Origin: Octopus vulgaris
Taxonomy: Eukaryota
DNA: 64,000 bases
Assembly (NCBI GenBank): GCA_951406725.2
Contig: OX597820.1
Coordinates: forward strand, 62,062,001-62,126,000
Direction: 5' to 3'
The position numbers and the translations under genes are program-made. Shown here piece after piece: positions 1,855 through 63,830 of this stretch. Under the pieces are notes generated by a model, which saw nothing but the letters and a program-made list of their open reading frames with translations, was not told where the DNA came from and made no database searches. Within the stretch, counting starts at the first letter, position 1. Each line of letters opens with the position of its first letter.

Positions 1855-1927
<73 letters not shown>

Positions 1928-1949
1928 ATGTTACATTACTCGGTAGTCA

Positions 1950-2012
1950 AGATAAAACTCTGAGTTTCAGATGCCGAAGTGGAAATCCACAACACCATCT
2001 CTTCGGTTATCT
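1950..2012 (-). ncRNA. Mirror copy of the type I hammerhead-like motif
   Basis: Reverse complement of 4294-4356. Confidence 0.7.
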
Positions 2013-2206
2013 GGCTATTTGAAAACGTTATGAAAAAATACCGTTAAAAATGAAGGGAAATTACTCTGTTATAACTCTGCTTTGCCTGCGTACTTATACA
2101 TCGCTCGCATTTTTCGTCATAAAAATTATATAAAAATACATAAAAATATATAAAAATATATAAAAATATATAAAATCTTCTTGGGACATAACACAGAAAG
2201 CATGTT

Positions 2207-3394
2207 CTATCCGTTTTCTTTAGGGGACCAAAAACGTAACAGAAATTTAGTCACATGTGGGCATGATCCGAAAAGCTCTGTCCTTGTATTTAGACATGTG
2301 GTAGGGTCTAAGCTGCTTTTCCAGATAAGCCATCTCTCCATGTCGCATAAACCGCACCTTCCGCTGCCGTTAGTATAGGGCTTACATCTGGCCAAAATCT
2401 TCCATTGTATGTTATAATCGACACCTTTATCTCTTAAAGACCAAATATGATTGGATAATTGTGTCGCTTTTCTTTTGTTCCAGTGCCTAAAGCTCAAAGT
2501 GTGGTTATTGAACCTGGCCTTGAAATTACCCTCTGTCAGGCCCACGTATTTCTTCGTCGAAACGGTGTCTTTAGTGGTTATAGAGTTTACGGTAGCTTCA
2601 TATATGATGGTCTTGGACATGCAAGCTCCATTTAGCGGGCACAATTCTTTATTCCTGCATGAACAGCTGTTTTCTTCTTGTGTTTTTTGTATGTTATGAT
2701 TGATTATGTTTTTAAAATTGGTAGTTGAACTAAAACTAATTTTTAAATTGTGTCTATTGAAGAGTTTCCTATAAGCATGGTTAACTGGAAAATGTCTATC
2801 TATCAGTGCTAGGAAATATTTACCTATATTGAAGGCCACCTCGGGTGAGTAAGGGGGCGTAAACCAGATGACCTTCCTAATTCTATTATTCCTTTTCCTT
2901 ATTGTTGGGCTGGTGATAGGTGTATATTTTATTTTTTCGCTAAAACCACTATCTTTTAAAGCTTTATTATAAACTGGGGCAACGCTATTGAAGATGTCCT
3001 CATTAGATGAGAGGCTAGAAATCCTCTTACTAATATTTTTAACTAAATTTTTGAATACTATAGGGGGATGGCATGAACCCACATTAATATAACTTAGTCT
3101 ATCATTGGGCTTCCTATAAGGCTTATAAATATTATTATTAAGATCTAAGGAAACGTCTAAGAAATTGACAACCGTCAGGTTAGTGTCTATAGTTATACTA
3201 AGTCCGAAGTGTTTCATTAACTGGATAATATCCTTCCTAAAACGATCTTGTGCTGGTCCATTTGTATTAGCTGTTAAGGCGAGGGCATCATCTTTGTAGA
3301 TGGCGAAATGTACGTTAGGGAATGTCTTACCGAAGGTATCTAGGAGAAAGAGTCCAATTAGATCACAGATGCCTGCCCCATCATATGAACCCAT
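2207..3394 (-). CDS. 5'-truncated PLE ORF: RT C-terminal half, thumb, linker and GIY-YIG endonuclease (probably Hydra-type PLE)
   Basis: MGSYDGAGICDLIG, IYKDDAL, VNFLDVSLDL, PYRKPND, SCHPP, RKVIWFTPPYS, CSCR..CPLNGAC, IIYEA...YVGLTEGNFKARFNNH, CGLC, CPH; no stops. The ORF track extends it to 3439 through the inverted arm. Confidence 0.9.
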   Translation of the reverse strand: MGSYDGAGICDLIGLFLLDTFGKTFPNVHFAIYKDDALALTANTNGPAQDRFRKDIIQLMKHFGLSITIDTNLTVVNFLDVSLDLNNNIYKPYRKPNDRLSYINVGSCHPPIVFKNLVKNISKRISSLSSNEDIFNSVAPVYNKALKDSGFSEKIKYTPITSPTIRKRNNRIRKVIWFTPPYSPEVAFNIGKYFLALIDRHFPVNHAYRKLFNRHNLKISFSSTTNFKNIINHNIQKTQEENSCSCRNKELCPLNGACMSKTIIYEATVNSITTKDTVSTKKYVGLTEGNFKARFNNHTLSFRHWNKRKATQLSNHIWSLRDKGVDYNIQWKILARCKPYTNGSGRCGLCDMERWLIWKSSLDPTTCLNTRTELFGSCPHVTKFLLRFWSPKENG

Positions 3395-3399
3395 GCTCA

Positions 3400-4100
3400 C
3401 AACAATAAGGAAAAGGAATAATAGAAATAGGAAGGTCATCTGGTTTACGCCCCCTTACTCACCCGAGGTGGCCTTCAATATAGGTAAATATTTCCTAGCA
3501 CTGATAGATAGACATTTTCCAGTTAACCATGCTTATAGGAAACTCTTCAATAGACACAATTTAAAAATTAGTTTTAGTTCAACTACCAATTTTAAAAACA
3601 TAATCAATCATAACATACAAAAAACACAAGAAGAAAACAGCTGTTCATGCAGGAATAAAGAATTGTGCCCGCTAAATGGAGCTTGCATGTCCAAGACCAT
3701 CATATATGAAGCTACCGTAAACTCTATAACCACTAAAGACACCGTTTCGACGAAGAAATACGTGGGCCTGACAGAGGGTAATTTCAAGGCCAGGTTCAAT
3801 AACCACACTTTGAGCTTTAGGCACTGGAACAAAAGAAAAGCGACACAATTATCCAATCATATTTGGTCTTTAAGAGATAAAGGTGTCGATTATAACATAC
3901 AATGGAAGATTTTGGCCAGATGTAAGCCCTATACTAACGGCAGCGGAAGGTGCGGTTTATGCGACATGGAGAGATGGCTTATCTGGAAAAGCAGCTTAGA
4001 CCCTACCACATGTCTAAATACAAGGACAGAGCTTTTCGGATCATGCCCACATGTGACTAAATTTCTGTTACGTTTTTGGTCCCCTAAAGAAAACGGATAG
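3400..4100 (+). CDS. Inverted second copy of the PLE linker plus GIY-YIG domain (open frame from 3300)
   Basis: Same peptide as the C-terminal part of the minus-strand ORF apart from RNRKV versus RIRKV. Confidence 0.85.
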
Positions 4101-4293
4101 AACATGCTTTCTGTGTTATGTCCCAAGAAGATTTTATATATTTTTATATATTTTTATATATTTTTATGTATTTTTATATAATTTTATGACGAAAAATGCG
4201 AGCGATGTATAAGTACGCAGGCAAAGCAGAGTTATAACAGAGTAATTTCCCTTCATTTTTAACGGTATTTTTTCATAACGTTTTCAAATAGCC

Positions 4294-4356
4294 AGATAAC
4301 CGAAGAGATGGTGTTGTGGATTTCCACTTCGGCATCTGAAACTCAGAGTTTTATCT
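4294..4356 (+). ncRNA. Type I hammerhead-like motif in the PLE 3' repeat
   Basis: AGATAA-CCGAAGA-GATG..CATC-T-GAA-ACTCAGAGT-T-TTATCT: stem I AGATAA/TTATCT, near-palindromic stem III; non-canonical C4 and an extra T before GAAA. Confidence 0.7.
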
Positions 4357-4454
4357 TGACTACCGAGTAATGTAACATATTGTATAGATAAATTTCCTCT
4401 ATTTACATAATATTGAGGTCTCTTTCTTTCTTTTGTTATCTTACCGTTTTATCA

Positions 4455-4499
<45 letters not shown>

Positions 4500-4845: not shown

Positions 4846-4849
<4 letters not shown>

Positions 4850-5069
4850 ATAAAACGGTAAGATAACAAAAGAAAGAAAGAGACCTCAATATTATGTAAA
4901 TAGAGGAAAATTATCTATACAATAATATGTTACATTACTCGGTAGTCAAGATAAAACTCTGAGTTTCAGATGCCGAAGTGGAAATCCACAACACCATCGT
5001 TCGGTTGATTTCCACTTCGGCATCTGAAACTCAGAGTTTTATCTTGACTACCGAGTAATGTAACATATT

Positions 5070-5076
<7 letters not shown>
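4846..5076. mobile_element. Mini fold-back derivative of the 1919-4455 PLE: 70-bp arms 4917-4986 and 5007-5076, tail 4846-4916, within (TA)n
   Basis: Direct reverse-complement match between arms; nearly identical to the 3' end of the large element. Confidence 0.9.
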
Positions 5077-23740: not shown

Positions 23741-24703
23741 TTTAAGATGAGGACCGAGTGAGTAACTCAAATGTAGTATTGAGATTAGGATCGCTGTTCC
23801 AATGCGTTGATATTAGTTGAAGAATGAGCTGGATATTATAGAGCAAACATTAGCAAACATTTTTATTCAAGCTCATGGGTTGCTGTTGATGCCGATGGAA
23901 GCTGGTTTCATAAATTTTCATCATGATGCTGGAAGCCCAATCCTGGTTCTTCAAACGTATCAATGTTGTCATTGGGGGCGTGTGTTGTTTTCCAAAGTCT
24001 CATAGATATTCCTTAATAGCTGGTTCATAAAGTGACTGCATCCTGGAGGAGATCGGTGTTGAAAATACTAGGCAATAGTATTTAGAAAGGATGATTTATA
24101 GTTTGCCATGCTAAATTTCTCCAACGCTGGCTGTTTTAAGAAATAAGTCAAATGTCGTTCTTCAGAGACGCTGGCCGTTATGCATAATCGTTGGGGCTGA
24201 GTGTTTTTGTCCCCGCATTATTATGGCATATATTTGGAGGGTGGTGCAAATAATATTGTCTTTACATTACTGACAAGACTAGCTGGGCGTTATTGTTGCT
24301 GTATTCCCAATGTGCAAACAAAGCTGAGTGCGTGAAGTAATTTCCATGTTGTTGGTAACAGGAACTGAGTATTAGAATTGGAATATCCATACTATTGTGA
24401 ACAATAGCTGAATGTATTATTTGTAGCCTTTATGTTTGATAACTGTAGCTATGTTTCGCTGTAACTAAGTTAATTTTAGCAATAGGCTGATGTTACATAT
24501 ATGATACATAAACCAGGTGTAGTTAGAAGTTTTGTAAATATGATCTTCATTACAATACAGGTGTTATATACAGCCTCCAGATTATTGTTAACAAGAGCTG
24601 GTTACTGGAAGAACTCTAGATGTTGTTGTTAACATGCGTTAGTTGTTAAAAGCATATTCCTCACATATTATTGGTAACAGCTGATGTCCGAAATATTGTT
24701 GCT

Positions 24704-24971
24704 TCAGTTAATATCAGCTGCCTGTTAAAAGAGTATTGCATGGTGCTGTCGACTATCGCTTGTTGTTAAAAGGCGTCTCTAATGTAATATTTACTGGTGT
24801 CTGGTGCTATATTAAATACAAAATTGAGAGAATATTTCGGACATCAATCCAACAGCTGGAGAATATAGCACAAGACACCAGTAAATATTACATTAGAGAC
24901 GCCTTTTAACAACAAGCGATAGTCGACAGCACTATGCAATACTCTTTTAACAGGCAGCTGATATTAACTGA
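24704..24971. repeat. 110-bp inverted duplication (24704-24813 / 24862-24971)
   Basis: Near-perfect reverse complement. Confidence 0.9.
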
Positions 24972-25862
24972 GCATGTTCGCTGCTGGAAGGGGTTTCGCA
25001 GACATTTTTTATAGGGTTTCTGGCGTTATTTTCTCCATTTTACTGTTAGCAGTTGTTGGCCGCTGCTATTCAAAATATTACTTTCTATCTGTAATCTTTA
25101 AGATGAGCTAAACGTTACAGGAGTGTTAAGTTTTACGCTCGTCTATTCCTTGTGATGTTCAATAGACACCTGGTGTTAGGCATACTCTTCTTTATATGTG
25201 AGAGGAACTAGATGTTACAGCGTGTTCCTGCGTTAATATTACAAGCTGTACTTTGTCCAAGTATTGAATACTTATGCTGTCGCTGAAATCACAGCATAAT
25301 TACACGCTAATCAATTTCCTTTGAATAAGGCTGAGGTCTTTAAAAAAGAAAGGGCATTAAGTAATGTAGGCAGACATATAATGTCAGGATAAATGTAAGT
25401 GGAACAGCTTTGATCATCGTCTGCCATCATGTGACCGAGTTGATCCCTACCAAACAAGTTCAACACCGAACTATACTGTTAGTAGTGTTGTTAGTGTTGT
25501 TAGTATAATGGGGGGAAGGCCTGTTAGTTGTATTAGTAGGGACATTAGTGATGTTAGTGGTATTACAGGTCGAGGGAAATGGGGAGTTAGTGTGTTAGCC
25601 GTAGTACTTGAGTGTTGGCGTTGTTTAGTCTCGAAATCAATCTCTGTCTCATATAGACTTGCCTATAATTAAAGGCATTCCAGCCACACGAAGCCCTTCA
25701 TTGGACACCAGGCTACATTATTCAATGTGATCTTCCTGTTTAGATGTTAGGAATGTCGTTATGTATGAGATTTAGCCTTTATATCAATGGTTCACCATAC
25801 AGCTCTCTATTGATTATGCAACGCCATAGGCCATTTAGAGTATCTCCGACGAAGTGTTATCT

Positions 25863-38678: not shown

Positions 38679-38821
38679 GTATATGTGTGTGTGTGTGTAT
38701 ACGACGGGATTCTTTCAGTTTCTGTCAACCACATCTACTGACAAGGCTTTGGTCGGCCCCAGGCTATGGTAGAAGACAGGTTCCACACAGTAGGACCGAA
38801 CCCAAAAAACTATGTAGTTGG
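38370..38821 (-). mobile_element. SINE family A, truncated by the fold-back element
   Basis: Similarity to other copies; stops at GTAGTTGG. Confidence 0.75.
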
Positions 38822-39019
38822 CCGGCAGAGTTTAATTGTCTTTCTTTAGTGATGAAGAAGAAGAATATATCAGTTAAGTTAGCATTATTCCGAATATGTT
38901 TCATGCACTGCCGAACTAGGAAACAAGCTACTCACTGCATTTTCTCACGGAATATATAACCCGTTTGTTGACAAATAGTGTGTATACATCCGTATCAGCT
39001 CGCAGCGTCACATACCCAG

Positions 39020-39063
39020 ATGAGATGCTAGCATTTCGGAGTAGTTATCTCCTCTTCGGTCAT
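39020..39063 (-). ncRNA. Minimal type I hammerhead ribozyme motif
   Basis: ATGA-CCGAAGA-GGAG ataacta CTCC-GAAA-TGCTAGCA-TC-TCAT; palindromic stem III ATGCTAGCAT. Confidence 0.8.
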
Positions 39064-39318
39064 AGACATTAGGCAGGCGGCGCTACGAGCTGATTGAAGA
39101 GATTGACTCTCTTACGCTTTCCCAGTCACCATACGGTGACGGGTAGCCCCCATACTGCGATTCACCGTAAATAAATTAAAGAGGGGGAACGCTCAGCAGT
39201 AATAAGTAAAATTGTAACGGCGAACTGCCTAATAGTGCTACCAGTCACCGTATGGTGGCTGGAAATGCATAAGAGAGTTAATCTCTTCAATCAGCTCGCA
39301 GTCCCGCCTGCTTAGTGC

Positions 39319-39366
39319 CTGTGGCTGAAGAAGGGATAATTACTCCGAAATGCTAGCATATCACAG
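39319..39366 (+). ncRNA. Minimal type I hammerhead ribozyme motif
   Basis: CTGTGG-CTGAAGA-aggg ataatta ctcc-GAAA-TGCTAGCA-TA-TCACAG; stem I extends to ATCAGCTCGCAG/CTGCGAGCTGAT. Confidence 0.8.
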
Positions 39367-39857
39367 CCTTTGGTAGGTGGTGCTGCGAGCTGATCTAGGT
39401 GTATACACACCATTTGTCAACAAACGGGATATATATTCCGTGAGAAAACGCAGTAAGTAGCTTGTTCCCTAGTTCGGCAGTGCATGAGACATATTCGGAA
39501 TGATGCTAACTTAACTGATATATTCTTCTTCTTCATCACTAAAGAAAGACAATTAAACTCTGCCGGCAACTTTTAACGAGATCCCAAATGTAAGGGGAAG
39601 TAATTTCAAGAAAGTGCTTCCCAACTACATAGTTTTTGGGGTTCGGTCCTACTGCGTGGAACCTGTCTTCTACCGTGCATCGACCATATTCGGAGTGATA
39701 ATAACATTAGAATTTTACTTATCACTGCTTAGCACGCCCCCTCTGTACAATTAGTTAAGATAGTCGTGATCCGGCATTCAGTGCCTCACACCTTAACTTA
39801 TTTATTATCCAAAAATACGTCACGGGCGTATTTGATTTACTCCTCCAAGATAATATT

Positions 39858-47056: not shown

Positions 47057-47839
<783 letters not shown>

Positions 47840-51279: not shown

Positions 51280-53110
51280 TAGAATACAAAATGTACTGTC
51301 TCTGCTTTTCTTTCAAACATTGAATTTGGGAGAGAATTTCTTGATGCAATGGAGCTCTGCATGAAAAAAACATTAGTACAATATTTATAAATTAAAAAAA
51401 AATATGTATATAGGCAAAACTAGAACACCCCAATGCTACTATGTTTATACCCGAACATTTGCAGAGATGAGAACATTTGGAATAAAAAATGCAAATTCTC
51501 CGCTTTACCTTCAAACATTCAATTTGTGTGTGTGTGCGTGTATGTGTGTGTGTTTGTGTGTGTATGTGTGTGTATGCTTGTGTGTGTGTATGTATGTTTG
51601 GGAATATGTCTATGTTTATACTGTGTAACTTCAATGTTTTGCATTTGAAAAACAAAGTCACGCTTCTTTCAAGTTCATGTTTTTCCATTAGAAAACATTA
51701 GTACAACACTTGCAAACTAGAAAAACACGCAATGCTCAGAACATCTCAATGCCACACATATACGCCTAAATATTTACAGAGATGAATATTATATTTCCAA
51801 TATTTGAGTTATTCTTAGAATGCAAAATATACTGTCTCTGCTTTTCAATTTTAGAGAGAAATTTTTGATGAAACGTAGTGTCATTGCTTTTCGGTATTGC
51901 GGATTGTCACGTGCAAATTTGTAAAAGGAAAAAATTTTGAATTTTCCGTCGCTGCTTATTTCCAGATGCTTACTTAATGGAATCTTGTGCAATTCCTCTT
52001 GTCGGATATGCTGCCTGTAGATTCTTGCACGTTGGCGAAGGGAATTATTTGTGTCGCCTATGTTACATAGTTTGGACAGGTAATGCAGTATATAAGGTTT
52101 TGCGCTTTGCAATTCATATCTGCCTTTATTTTGAAAGGGATCCACTCTTGAATTTTATGTGAGAACCACTTTATAATTATTTAAAGTTGTTGTTGTTGCA
52201 TGTTCGCCATCTGTCTCCACATTCTTTTATTAAGAATTCTGATTCATTCTCCGATTTGAATTCTGCCCTTGCGAGGTGGTTTTTAAGATATTTTGGTTGG
52301 CGTCTACTATTCTGTAAGGTATTTTTTTGCAATAAGATTTTTCATTTTAGGGCTTTGTAAGAGTATAGGTAAGTTCGATTTTATGGCGTGAAAAATGTCG
52401 TTTATTCCAGGTCAGTGTGTGTTTTCATTAACTTTTTTCTTTAGGTGTCCGGAGTAGGGTGATGTTCAGTTTTATCGGATTTTTAATTCCCTCATTAATT
52501 AATCCTAAGGTGTATTTCTACATTGTGAGGAAGCCTTTGAGTTTGTTGAGTCGGATTTCACGTATTCTGAGGTCAGTCACTATAACACAGATGAACCTTG
52601 CCATGCTGTGTGGGATGTTTCTGTTAATGTGTAATGGATGACAAGAATATAAATTTAAATATTGGTGTGTGTCAGTTTTTTTGTAAAATATGTCTGTTGT
52701 GACTGTGGAGTTCTGTATTTTTATGTGAATATCCAGGAATGGTAGTTCATTGCAACTGGATTATGTCGTGAATTTGATGGATGGGCGAAATGTATTCAGT
52801 ATATTGTTAAATATACTTAGATCTTCAGTCGGTTTTTCCCAGAAAATGAAGCAATTATCAAGGAAGCGTTTCCCCTTTTTAATGATATATTTCTTGTATT
52901 CCTGATCAAAAGCTTTTTCTACTTACTCCTGAAGTTTTTCTTCCAAGTATGCCATAACAAAGTTTGCTTATGAGGGCGCAAACCGCGTACACATAGTCGT
53001 ACCCTTTATCTGTCGGTATGTTTTATTGTCGAATCTAAAGGTATTTTCCTCTAGTAGTAGGCGTGTGGCCTTGGTGATGAAGTCAGTCTTGAAGCGTGAC
53101 CAATTTCCGC
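51280..53110 (-). mobile_element. Degenerate PLE (RT plus GIY-YIG), an older relative of the 55.8-58.2 kb element, with a partial direct repeat of its ORF end
   Basis: RQIKGTTMCTRFAPS*ANFVM, GKRFLDNCFIFW, SLRQRARIYRQHIRQEELHKIPLSKHL; 51288-51358 repeats 51824-51880. Confidence 0.9.
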
Positions 53111-55803: not shown

Positions 55804-55812
55804 ATATATATA

Positions 55813-57597
55813 TATATATTAGAAAAATTGAGGTAATCAGATCAGATGGTTCATATTTGTAGATATTTATTTATATATTACATTTTTTACATATATATCA
55901 TATCATTCGGATTAGCGCTTGCTCCCATTCTAGTGGGTTTTCAAATCAAATCAGTTGTGGGTAGTTTGAACCTTTTTATAGTTTCGTAGTAGCGGGTGAG
56001 GAGAAAAAGTGGAAACGCTACCTCGATGACTGTTTCATCTTTTGGAACAGATCAGAAGAGGACCTACAAACATTCCACAACATCCTCAATACGCTGCACC
56101 CATCTATCAATTTCACAATAGATACCAGCCACAACGAACTTCCCTTCCTAGACATCAACATCAAAATACACAACTCCATCGTCACAACAGACATCCACTA
56201 CAAAAAAACTGACACACATCAATACTTAAATTTCCACTCCTGCCACCCATCCCACACAAAAAGAAACATCCCATATAGTATGGCACGACGAATATGTAGC
56301 ATAGTAACTGATTCACAAATACGATTAATAAGACTAGATGAACTCAAAAGCTTCCTCCTAGAGCAAAAATACCCCCTTAAACTAATAGAAAATGGAATCA
56401 CAAGAGCATTAAAACTAGACATCACACAACTCAGGACACCCAAAACAAAAAACAAAGAAAACACTATCCCTTTTATAAACACACACAACCCTGGAGTTAC
56501 CAACATCTTCCAAACCATACATTCAAACCTACCAATAGCCTTACAGAGCCCCAAAATGAAAAACATATTAAACAAATATAGCATAAAAAACAGTAGACGA
56601 CAGGACAAAAACCTAAAAAAACACCTAACAAGAGCGAAATTCTCTTCAGAAACTAAAACGGAATTCTTTGCAAAAGAGTGCGGAGATGGTAGATGTGGGA
56701 CCTGCAGCAACCCCACCTACAAATACATAGAGAGCAACAGAGAGATAAGATTTAAAAATGGTGTCATATTCAAAGTAAATGCAGATATGAACTGCAAGAC
56801 GCAGAACGTCATATACTGCTTAACCTGCCCCACATGCAAGGAGAATTACGTAGGAGAAACTGGTAATTCTTTGTGCCAGCGAGCCAGGATCCACCGACAA
56901 CATATTCGGCAGGAAGAACTACGCAAAATACCACTAAGCACACACCTAGCTACATGTGGAGAAGGAAAATTTAAGATATTTCCCTTCTACAAGTGTCCGA
57001 AGAATGACACCCCCTTCAGGAGGAATATGGAAAAACATTTCATAGCTAAGTTCTCCCCCAAATTAAATGGCTGAAACTTTACTCAACATACATTGAAGGA
57101 AAAATCTGTGTGTGTGTAGATGTGTGTATTGCCTGTTATATACATCATATTATATTATTATCTTTATAATTCACTTCCATCTTTACCCTTTAATTGTCAC
57201 TTTAATTTTAACTTTCCTATGACATACAACTTTCAAGATGGTATAATTTGGTTGTTCATTTTGAACCGATAAAAAGGTTTTTTCAAATATTTTATGTATA
57301 AGTCTGTGTGTGTGTGTATATATATGTGTTGGTATAAATATCAACACACAAAAATATTTTTTCTTCTCCACTTCCTCCCTTATTTTTATTTTTATTTTTA
57401 TTTTTATTATTTTTTTATTTTTATTCTTTATATTTTTATTTATTCTTTATATTTTTTTATTTTATTTTTTATTTTTTGTTTTTATTTTATTTTATTTTTT
57501 TTATTTTTTAATTTTTTATTTTTATTATTATTATTTTTATTTTCCCTTTTCTCTTTTTGTCTCTCTCCCCTTCTCCAAACACACAGACACACACACA

Positions 57598-57635
<38 letters not shown>

Positions 57636-57843
57636 AAAACACACACAGACACACAGAGACACACACACACACACACCTCCACAGAATGATCATAGAAAGT
57701 GTGACCCCAAATGACATTTGCCAGGCCAACCTATGCACAACACACACTCAGTGACATTGAAATGGACAGCCAAAGTTCTTATAAAACCACAGGGGGTCCA
57801 GCAGACCAACGGAAATAACACTTCTTCACTCTCAGATATAAAT

Positions 57844-57911
<68 letters not shown>

Positions 57912-58154
57912 ACATATTTTCTCTCTGTCTCACTTCCTCCTCACCCACTACTACGAAACTATAAAAAGGTTCAAACTACCCACAACTGATTTGATTTGAA
58001 AACCCACTAGAATGGGAGCAAGCGCTAATCCGAATGATATGATATATATGTAAAAAATGTAATATATAAATAAATATCTACAAATATGAACCATCTGATC
58101 TGATTACCTCAATTTTTCTAATATATAATACCTGTACATCATCTCCAAACCTTC

Positions 58155-58158
<4 letters not shown>
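55813..58158 (+). mobile_element. 5'-truncated PLE with an inverted terminal repeat (55813-56003 / 57937-58127), ~30-nt tail and (TA)n flanks
   Basis: ~190-bp arms with one mismatch seen; RT and GIY-YIG frame inside. Confidence 0.95.
56004..57074 (+). CDS. PLE ORF fragment: RT catalytic motif, thumb, Cys-rich linker and GIY-YIG (Naiad/Neptune-like)
   Basis: Uninterrupted frame WKRYLDDCFIFW...LPFLDI...YKKTDTHQYLNFHSCHP...CGDGRCGTC...MNCKTQNVIYCLTCPTCKENYVGETG...QRARIH...PKLN. Confidence 0.92.
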   Translation, partial: KKWKRYLDDCFIFWNRSEEDLQTFHNILNTLHPSINFTIDTSHNELPFLDINIKIHNSIVTTDIHYKKTDTHQYLNFHSCHPSHTKRNIPYSMARRICSIVTDSQIRLIRLDELKSFLLEQKYPLKLIENGITRALKLDITQLRTPKTKNKENTIPFINTHNPGVTNIFQTIHSNLPIALQSPKMKNILNKYSIKNSRRQDKNLKKHLTRAKFSSETKTEFFAKECGDGRCGTCSNPTYKYIESNREIRFKNGVIFKVNADMNCKTQNVIYCLTCPTCKENYVGETGNSLCQRARIHRQHIRQEELRKIPLSTHLATCGEGKFKIFPFYKCPKNDTPFRRNMEKHFIAKFSPKLNG

Positions 58159-58216
<58 letters not shown>

Positions 58217-62708: not shown

Positions 62709-62872
62709 TACTCTTTACTCTTTTATTTGTTTGTCATTTGACTACGGCCATGCTGGAGCACCGCCTTTAGTCGAACAAATAGAGTCAAGGACTTATTCTT
62801 TGTAAGCCTAGTACTTATTCTATCGGTCTCTTATGAGGAACCGCTAAATTACGGGGACGCAAACACACCAGC
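62709..62872 (-). mobile_element. SINE family A 3' half (a further degenerate piece at ~62230-62380)
   Basis: Family match. Confidence 0.85.
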
Positions 62873-63380
62873 AAGCATTTTGCCTGGTCGATGAGACACT
62901 AAAAGAAAACACTAAAGTGTTAACGGGAGTGAAGATTAACCCGGAAAAGTCAGTGGGCTTGCGGCTCAGTACCTGGAGAAGCAAGCCCATGCCGTCTAAC
63001 AGCGTCTCCATCATAGGACACTGGACTGACGGACCGGTTAAATTGCTCGGGGTCTCGTTCGGTACAGATCTCCAAAAGAACTGGGACGAGATAACTAGTA
63101 GGGTAGCCACTCTCACCCTGAAATGGGTTGAGAGGAAGCTATCGCTAAAAGGTCGGGCTGTGGTGGGGAATGCGTATATCGCATCGGTCATCTACTACCG
63201 TCTGACCATCGTGCCTTATGCCGACCTTAATACCACGAAACTGGACCGCATACTCTTCCGCTTTTTGTGGAAGGGAAACGTTCAAATAGTCAGGCGATCC
63301 ATTTGCTGCGAACATCCGCTAAATGGAGGGCTGGGCATGCCGTGGTTGATGATGTGCAGACATGCGCTGAGACTGTGACA
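62873..63380 (+). mobile_element. Tx1/L1-clade LINE RT fragment
   Basis: TGVKINPEKS, VKLLGV, W..RKLSLKGRAVV.N, FRFLWKG, GGLGMP. Confidence 0.9.
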
Positions 63381-63599: not shown

Positions 63600-63619
63600 C
63601 AGACGCACAAATACGGGTA

Positions 63620-63830
63620 GCATATAAAAGCAAAACAAGGTGGTAAAAATAGTATCTGAATACCGAAAGTAGAGTAATATTATTTTGATTGAAGCCGAAA
63701 AAAGTCTTCACAAAATATGGCTAAAGCTTCACGTTACTGTTCGTCGGACAGTTATGATCATAATTGTCCGACGAACGGTAACGTGAAACCCTGAGTTACA
63801 ATTTGTGAAGATTTTTCGAGTTTAATATAA
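63620..63830. mobile_element. Mini fold-back element (core arms 63728-63757 / 63758-63787) with a tail on the left
   Basis: Loop-less palindrome with 2 mismatches, extending imperfectly to ~63697 and ~63817. Confidence 0.85.
63764..63801 (+). ncRNA. Minimal type I hammerhead motif
   Basis: TTGT-CCGACGA-ACG gtaa CGT-GAAA-CCCTGAG-TT-ACAA. Confidence 0.75.

What the first reader, a model, noticed from the sequence alone, without database searches (positions are those of the whole stretch)
4846..5076. Mini fold-backs turn around at the 5' edge of the hammerhead (case 1, and the general rule)
Seen: this 230-bp element consists only of the 3' end of the neighbouring PLE; its longer arm stops 2 nt upstream of the HHR core. 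The unrelated elements at 47449 and 63620 also invert within 0-10 nt of the core, and all three have a one-sided tail with a similar CTCTA...TATT(G/C)AG motif. Inference: reverse transcription stalls or templates end at the ribozyme fold and then snap back, producing HHR-tipped hairpin elements. The core upstream of the cleavage site is retained, so the apex is not simply the self-cleavage site. These may be a non-autonomous class.
Basis: partly seen in the sequence, partly recalled or inferred. Interest (0 to 1): 0.75.

Follow-up and report, generated by a model that had tools for sequence, protein, structure and literature searches.

The report
Penelope stubs mark the transcript start
This 230-base hairpin is one of hundreds of short back-to-back stubs of a Penelope-type jumping gene whose ends pile up just ahead of its ribozyme motif, likely because the gene's capped RNA starts there and is likely copied twice onto the two sides of one DNA cut, which offers a readable record of how these poorly understood elements would insert.

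Summary
4846-5076 is two 5'-truncated arms of a Hydra-type Penelope-like element (PLE) joined head-to-head; only one arm has the 3' tail. The pile-up is real: 30 of 88 sampled arms end within 45 nt upstream of the hammerhead core, against 4 of 58 and 1 of 54 in the next two bins. Stalling at the ribozyme and a self-copying class are not supported: this junction is unique in 2.8 Gb, and in 33 of 87 pairs each arm holds sequence the other lacks. In the 47449 family, arms end at an A 29 nt after TATAAA, and 44 of 82 arms joined to (TA)n there carry an extra G, against 1 of 42 ending nearer the core. That is the known footprint of a copied RNA cap. Best reading: run-off copies of the RNA's 5' leader, primed at two start sites. 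The G signal is weak in this element's own family (4 of 19). Inverted copy plus tail is published; this scan reached the run-off reading before on other genomes (AI notes); the cap-G test is added here.

The parts
4846..5006 (-). Mini element, tailed arm (positions -2 to +156 relative to core C3)
5007..5076 (+). Mini element, short arm (+19 to about +81/+90; end blurred by (TA)n)
4955..5004 (-). Hammerhead remnant in the mini: core altered, 5' strand of helix I mostly missing; predicted inactive
   Evidence: G8C inactivates the Anolis PLE ribozyme (PMC11167929 main text)
4846..4911 (-). One-sided tail (+91 to +156) with the CTCTA...GAG motif
3400..4456 (+). Neighbouring long fold-back, tailed arm (-897 to +156)
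1916..3401 (-). Neighbouring long fold-back, short arm (-1391 to +90)
2207..3454 (-). 5'-truncated RT + GIY-YIG reading frame of the neighbour (415 aa stop to stop)
4294..4356 (+). Intact type I hammerhead motif: core from 4300, predicted cut after 4350, 6-bp helix I, 3-bp helix III
4257..4286 (+). Predicted start region of family 1: TTTTAA at -43 (TATAA at -44 in the older subfamily) and A at -14
   Evidence: weak G signal; inferred
47449..47510 (-). Family 2 mini, short arm (ends at position 0)
47511..47646 (+). Family 2 mini, tailed arm (from -2)
63612..63757 (-). Family 3 mini, tailed arm (to about -10; older, arms about 82% alike; outer end approximate)
63758..63828 (+). Family 3 mini, short arm (outer end approximate)
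38820..39566 (.). Hammerhead-bearing fold-back that turns about 87-89 nt upstream of its cores: exception to the rule

Best explanation
The element is a pair of short 5'-truncated copies of a Hydra-type Penelope-like retrotransposon joined head-to-head in a (TA)n tract, likely made when the element's enzyme copied the first 100-170 bases of its own likely capped RNA onto both ends of one DNA cut and ran off the RNA's start. Steps. (1) Shown: insertions are pairs of arms with two fixed 3' ends (+81/+90 and +156) and independent 5' ends that peak just upstream of the hammerhead. (2) Shown in family 2: the peak is an A 29 nt after TATAAA and is often preceded by a G absent from the parent. Inferred: that A is the capped transcription start. 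(3) Inferred: because the priming sites lie only 90-160 nt behind the start, priming on the RNA's 5' repeat gives short run-off cDNA, while priming on the 3' repeat of a read-through RNA gives the long arms. (4) Inferred: both cut ends are extended, one from each priming site, and the two cDNA ends are joined by microhomology or with filler. The hammerhead marks the place only because it sits right behind the start. A small class (3 of 25 very short pairs) begins exactly at the predicted cut and likely comes from self-cleaved RNA.
For: Cliff, not decay: exact-motif counts 2976 at the core, 1435 at -60, 1514 at -102; family 2, 5426 at the core against 1722 at the TATA; 30 of 88, 4 of 58, 1 of 54 arms end in successive 46-nt bins. 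Extra G: 44 of 82 loci at -6 (hand tally) against 1 of 42 at -4..0, Fisher p 1.8e-9; the parent has G at -7 in 1 of 100 listed long copies; 16 such loci were read and 15 hold one arm each in unlike flanks, one holds a local duplicate. An untemplated 5' G is read as a copied cap for L1 and SVA (PMC4859970, passages). Same 29-30 nt spacing in family 1. Two priming sites: 87 of 92 pairs have one tailed and one short arm; single arms with the G end at either site, 7 short and 9 tailed of 17; the Anolis PLE enzyme cuts and extends both strands and starts at two sites that bound the tail (PMC11167929). Short arm longer in 33, equal within 4 nt in 33, tailed arm longer in 21 of 87; fillers of 50-200 nt between arms in several loci.
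Against: No RNA 5'-end data: only assembled contigs were available and they cannot show a start. In this element's own family the G signal is weak, 4 of 19 at -14 (p 0.029 against the family 2 control), ends are spread over 45 nt, and G before non-overlapping ends was 20 of 54 without clear position specificity. The window's own minis end at -2/+19 and -2/0, short of the predicted starts, so trimming must be assumed. The 54 pairs with equal ends or a longer tailed arm fit snap-back equally well, and the short end resembles (TA)n. Arm variants were 138 shared and 230 unshared over 15,172 nt, so one RNA molecule for both arms is not shown. An extra G could come from terminal addition rather than a cap. 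Motif counts mix subfamilies. D. virilis Penelope has a TATA-less internal promoter (PMC2377424, passages), so the TATA link is not general.
Confidence: 0.68

Rival explanations
1. Run-off at the RNA start, but the second arm is made by the cDNA folding back and copying itself (snap-back); where the tail-less arm is longer, the tail is added by a second short priming.
For: 54 of 87 pairs have equal ends or a longer tailed arm; long pairs often end close together (-1430/-1450, -341/-353); arms share subfamily tags; palindromes at many apices.
Against: Needs a second route for 33 of 87 pairs; long fillers between arms; single short-ended arms show that the short site primes by itself.
Confidence: 0.15
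2. One reading: reverse transcription halts at the folded hammerhead and then folds back.
For: The family 2 peak (-6) is also the 5' end of helix I; 20 of 108 family 1 arms end inside the ribozyme region, +1..+62.
Against: An enzyme moving 3' to 5' meets the helices on their 3' side, yet the main peak is beyond their 5' side (inference); a stall does not predict a G at one position only or the TATA spacing; the computed fold of family 1 is not the hammerhead fold.
Confidence: 0.08
3. The hairpins are a self-propagating non-autonomous family.
For: Identical simple junctions recur in family 2 and among the shortest family 1 pairs (6 and 4 of 25); minis are numerous (348 with both 13-mers exact).
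Against: This junction occurs once with up to 1 mismatch; recurring junctions sit on palindromes or short overlaps and occur in three subfamily backgrounds each; no filler-bearing family 1 junction was seen twice among those printed.
Confidence: 0.05
4. Self-priming on an antisense template, as proposed for rotifer PLEs, or a splice acceptor at the start of helix I as in D. virilis.
For: Proposed in PMC3846280 (discussion passage); D. virilis intron ends at the 5' end of helix I (PMC4209133, passage); family 2 has AG at -6,-5 in nearly all listed long copies.
Against: Arms keep the AG and gain a single G, with no shared upstream exon; a G at the sense 5' end points to a sense, capped template.
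Confidence: 0.04

Closest known systems
EN+ Penelope-like element insertions with an inverted 5'-truncated copy and one-sided tail (PMC8557442 passages and Fig. 2 legend; Pen2a_Av in PMC3846280 passages; paired opposite-strand minimal hammerheads 100-700 bp apart in PMC4209133 passage)
   Same: Head-to-head truncated arms, tail on one arm only, hammerhead in the terminal repeat, partial tandems, TATA-like box in the repeat (Pen2a_Av).
   Different: Tail is 66-75 nt rather than 30-40; the passages seen do not describe a peak of ends at the transcript start, an extra G, or ORF-less pairs as a third to two thirds of all arms.
Hydra clade of C-terminal EN+ PLEs (PMC8557442 section 11)
   Same: 2.58-kb unit, single 708-aa ORF, RWK, DKT, CxCX5C and CxxC motifs, hammerhead, (TA)n target.
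   Different: No tree was built; family 2 has a 3' region of about 2.4 kb rich in microsatellites, beyond the stated size under 3 kb.
Anolis Poseidon PLE in vitro mechanism (PMC11167929, main text read)
   Same: Two RT start sites bounding the tail, AT-rich target, both strands cut and extended, ribozyme cleavage not needed.
   Different: That work does not address the inverted arm or the 5' ends; there the ORF starts inside the ribozyme, here about 240 nt behind the core.
L1 twin priming and untemplated 5' G (PMC4859970 passages)
   Same: Inversion from priming on both cut strands; cap read as G at full-length 5' ends.
   Different: L1's second priming is internal and the arms do not overlap (recalled); here both arms copy the same stretch from two fixed sites.
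Non-LTR retrozymes (bioRxiv 10.64898/2026.07.22.740005, part 1 of 5 and passages)
   Same: ORF-less, PLE-derived, type I hammerhead.
   Different: Retrozymes are head-to-tail tandem repeats with intact ribozymes; these are head-to-head, mostly one-off, and often lack a complete ribozyme.

Membership tests
EN+ Penelope-like element | Single ORF with RT and C-terminal GIY-YIG endonuclease in the parent | tested here: met
   708-aa ORF in tandem copy L031 with a YKDD motif; Pfam GIY-YIG only weak, E 0.017, below cut-off, and no Pfam RT hit; 98.7% identical to the window neighbour
EN+ Penelope-like element | Tandem or partial-tandem and inverted arrangement with one-sided tail | tested here: met
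   Tandem period 2579-2585; 87 of 92 pairs one tailed plus one short arm
EN+ Penelope-like element | Type I hammerhead motif in the terminal repeat | tested here: met
   Descriptor scan 4300-4350; not among the Rfam rows shown; activity not tested
Hydra clade | RWK, DKT, CxCX5C linker, unit under 3 kb, (TA)n target | tested here: met
   Read in the translation against the definition; family 2 has CxCX5C but a longer unit
Hydra clade | Phylogenetic placement with reference Hydra proteins | not tested
   No reference set fetched, no tree built
Non-autonomous self-propagating element | Many copies sharing one internal structure and junction | tested here: not met
   Junction unique; recurring family 2 junctions cross subfamily backgrounds
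Non-LTR retrozyme | Head-to-tail tandem units each with an intact hammerhead | tested here: not met
   Head-to-head, altered core, helix I strand missing
Run-off copy of a capped transcript | Untemplated G at a fixed 5' end about 30 nt behind a TATA-like box | tested here: met
   Family 2: 44 of 82 against 1 of 42
Run-off copy of a capped transcript | Same signature in family 1, the finding's own family | tested here: inconclusive
   4 of 19 at -14; 20 of 54 overall
Run-off copy of a capped transcript | RNA 5' ends mapped at that position | not testable with these tools
   Only contigs were offered

The most novel reading that the evidence does not exclude
PLEs integrate by symmetric twin priming: a dimeric enzyme extends both ends of a double-strand cut from two fixed sites on a capped sense RNA, so the inverted repeat and the one-sided tail are one event; the commonest product is a strong-stop-like copy of the 5' leader, which lets PLE transcription starts, and rare in vivo ribozyme cuts, be mapped from genome sequence alone.
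Probability: 0.5. Interest if true: 0.72.

Novelty: new variant of a known kind. Interest (0 to 1): 0.52.

Why it matters
How PLEs make their inverted repeats is open: one paper proposes self-priming on an antisense template (PMC3846280), another leaves the steps after priming unvalidated (PMC11167929). Thousands of young arms in this genome carry positions and junction letters that discriminate between these models, and point to a capped sense template read from two sites. The element itself is an ordinary by-product, not a new mobile class.

Tried and rejected
DNA similarity search of the own genome returned nothing (the tool skips common words). Counts of fold-backs with wider inner gaps could not be obtained, so the mid-length range rests on anchored motif counts and sampled loci. 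Rfam gave only microsatellite-driven miRNA matches in the rows shown. No RNA holder listed on record; contigs of guessed RNA runs and DNA runs were laid twice: depth rises across -45..0 and loose ends occur at the -6 position of family 2, but contigs cannot show starts, so not used as evidence. A lenient alignment tally over-extended some arms and dropped others through a faulty duplicate filter; replaced. '-7' calls are mostly -6 ends read through the AGCT palindrome. L216 (family 2, 6-kb spacing) held no PLE ORF; L256, L258 and L259 did. Cleavage site as main apex rejected: 3 of 25 very short pairs. Target-site duplication cannot be read in (TA)n. Literature searches listed no paper whose title or abstract start describes a start-site peak, cap-G or twin priming for PLEs; most listed papers were not opened, the library lacks most subscription papers, figure images of PMC11167929's supplement (Fig. 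S2 coverage) could not be seen (0 text hits), and bioRxiv supplements are closed.

Full report
Numbering: 0 is the first core base (C3) of the hammerhead; window 4300 for family 1. Family 1 is the finding's family, family 2 that of 47449, family 3 that of 63620.

1. The element. 4846-5076 lies in (TA)n and consists of a minus-strand arm 4846-5006 (-2 to +156) and a plus-strand arm from 5007 (+19 to about +81/+90). It differs from the neighbouring long element by a TAT insertion in both arms, one substitution and an altered core, so it comes from another copy of the family; the TAT variant recurs in other loci. The neighbour is the same design at larger scale: short arm -1391 to +90, tailed arm -897 to +156. 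The other two minis turn 2 and 20 nt between cores. All three tails share CTCTA; in families 2 and 3 it is computed to pair with a downstream GAGTA or GATA, in family 1 CCTC with GAGG.

2. The parent. An exact 24-mer has 4095 matches in the 2.8-Gb genome. A tandem array gives a 2.58-kb unit with an intact 708-aa ORF bearing RWK, DKT, CxCX5C and CxxC, the marks of the Hydra clade (PMC8557442 section 11); Pfam gives only a weak GIY-YIG match. Long family 2 copies encode a related protein, about 40% identical, followed by about 2.4 kb of microsatellite-rich sequence. Family 3's parent was not identified.

3. Is the peak real? Yes. Arms holding an anchor plus a 12-mer number 2976 at 0, 1435 at -60 and 1514 at -102: a halving and then a plateau, though subfamily differences add to the drop. 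In loci around 86 of the first 100 listed matches, with two subfamily references, 30 of 88 arms that reach 0 end in -45..0, 4 of 58 in -91..-46 (three at -75, probably a further subfamily) and 1 of 54 in -137..-92; 20 of 108 end at +1..+62. 348 fold-backs have an inner gap up to 260; the 50 listed span 38-232 nt and none 233-286. Family 2 is sharper: 5426 arms at the core against 1722 at the TATA; 27 of 33 listed head-to-head pairs within 3 kb have gaps of 49 or less (hand count); 76 of 113 arms read end at -7..0 (sample enriched for minis). Family 3: 14 of 28 loci have cores 4-78 nt apart. So the rule is a strong tendency, about a third of arms in family 1 and two thirds in family 2, with exceptions in this window (1916-4456; 38820-39566).

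4. What sets the position? Family 2 parents have TATAAA at -35 and an A at -6, 29 nt later; family 1 has TATAA at -44 (older subfamily) or TTTTAA at -43 with an A at -14. I asked for family 2 arms joined straight to (TA)n at -6: 92 rows, 82 loci after removing 10 overlapping rows; the base before the A is G in 44, T 15, C 14, A 9. The parent has G there in 1 of 100 listed copies and the target has none. Control, arms ending at -4..0: 51 rows, 42 loci, G in 1; p 1.8e-9. Sixteen G loci were read: unlike flanks apart from one local duplicate, both helix variants, and either 3' end. An untemplated 5' G is the accepted sign of a copied cap in L1 and SVA (PMC4859970, passages). In family 1 the same test at -14 gave 3 of 9 and 1 of 10, weak; G also precedes A(-25) in 3 of 5 arms. 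The D. virilis start also lies in the terminal repeat, but with a TATA-less promoter and an intron ending at helix I (PMC2377424, PMC4209133, passages). A stall at the fold would put ends on the 3' side of helices (inference), and the computed fold of this region pairs the tail with -40..-33 and -6..0 instead of forming the hammerhead.

5. How is the second arm made? Of 92 pairs (enriched for minis), 87 have one tailed and one short arm. The short arm reaches more than 4 nt further 5' in 33, the ends are equal in 33, the tailed arm is longer in 21. In the 33, neither arm can be a copy of the other. Junctions show 0-13 nt overlaps, short templated repeats or fillers up to about 200 nt. Single arms end at either 3' site, so both sites prime. 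This matches the Anolis enzyme, which cuts and extends both strands, starts at two sites bounding the tail and is predicted dimeric (PMC11167929, parts 1-2 of 4 read). Against: 54 pairs fit snap-back too; variants were 138 shared and 230 unshared, the latter largely singletons or alignment shifts in repeats by inspection; arms share subfamily tags in family 2 with one exception. One source locus is likely, one RNA molecule is not shown.

6. Self-propagation and cleavage. The window's junction is single-copy. The three commonest family 2 junctions each occur in three subfamily backgrounds, as expected for repeated formation at the AGCT palindrome. Among 25 very short family 1 pairs, 3 on three contigs have both arms starting exactly at +51, the predicted cut, with no overlap; 6 and 4 share other junctions at the helix III palindrome. 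This is a modest hint of in vivo cleavage.

7. Known and new. Inverted truncated copy, tail and opposite-strand hammerhead pairs are in print (PMC8557442, PMC3846280, PMC4209133; passages). My searches found no account of the start-site peak or cap-G in PLEs, within the limits stated. Earlier AI notes of this scan reached the run-off and two-sided reading in other genomes; I had written that reading before opening them, and they are not independent support. Verdict: real feature, by-product of a known insertion pattern, with a testable and partly new mechanistic signal; interest 0.52.

Noticed in passing
window 4260-4451 (+): The family 1 tail end is computed to pair with -40..-33 and with the 5' strand of helix I (z -2.18), an alternative fold that would switch the ribozyme off and bring the RNA start next to the priming site.
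   Followed up: no
L256 (G000:C1:22942000-22947200); L216: Family 2 long copies carry kilobases of TA/TG-rich text between ORF and ribozyme, copied with the element, so it may spread microsatellite-like DNA.
   Followed up: partly
window 55809-58160: Another RT + GIY-YIG fold-back (ORF 55965-57074, Pfam E 1.2e-5) with a one-sided tail and no hammerhead in my scan; its inverted arm is about 198 nt; a related older copy lies at 51846-52868.
   Followed up: partly
window 38768-39674: Older hammerhead fold-back of a fourth family, apparently inserted in a common short repeat with a duplicated flank; turns far from the core.
   Followed up: partly
window 24700-24974: 275-nt near-palindrome (88%) with no hammerhead found; nature unknown.
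   Followed up: no
L126 (G000:C1:16309300-16310600): Two family 2 arms ending near -6 with about 200 nt of unrelated repeat DNA captured between them.
   Followed up: partly
L265 (G000:C5:106237900-106238900): Two G-led leader copies in tandem, as if the enzyme jumped from one capped RNA end to another template.
   Followed up: no
L019, L053, L058 and G000:C3:138287956: Family 1 arms ending at -14 are several times preceded by GA rather than G, perhaps slippage on the AAA start.
   Followed up: no
window 62848-63378: Fragment of another, LINE-like reading frame on the opposite side of a (GATA)n tract from the family 3 mini; family not tested.
   Followed up: no
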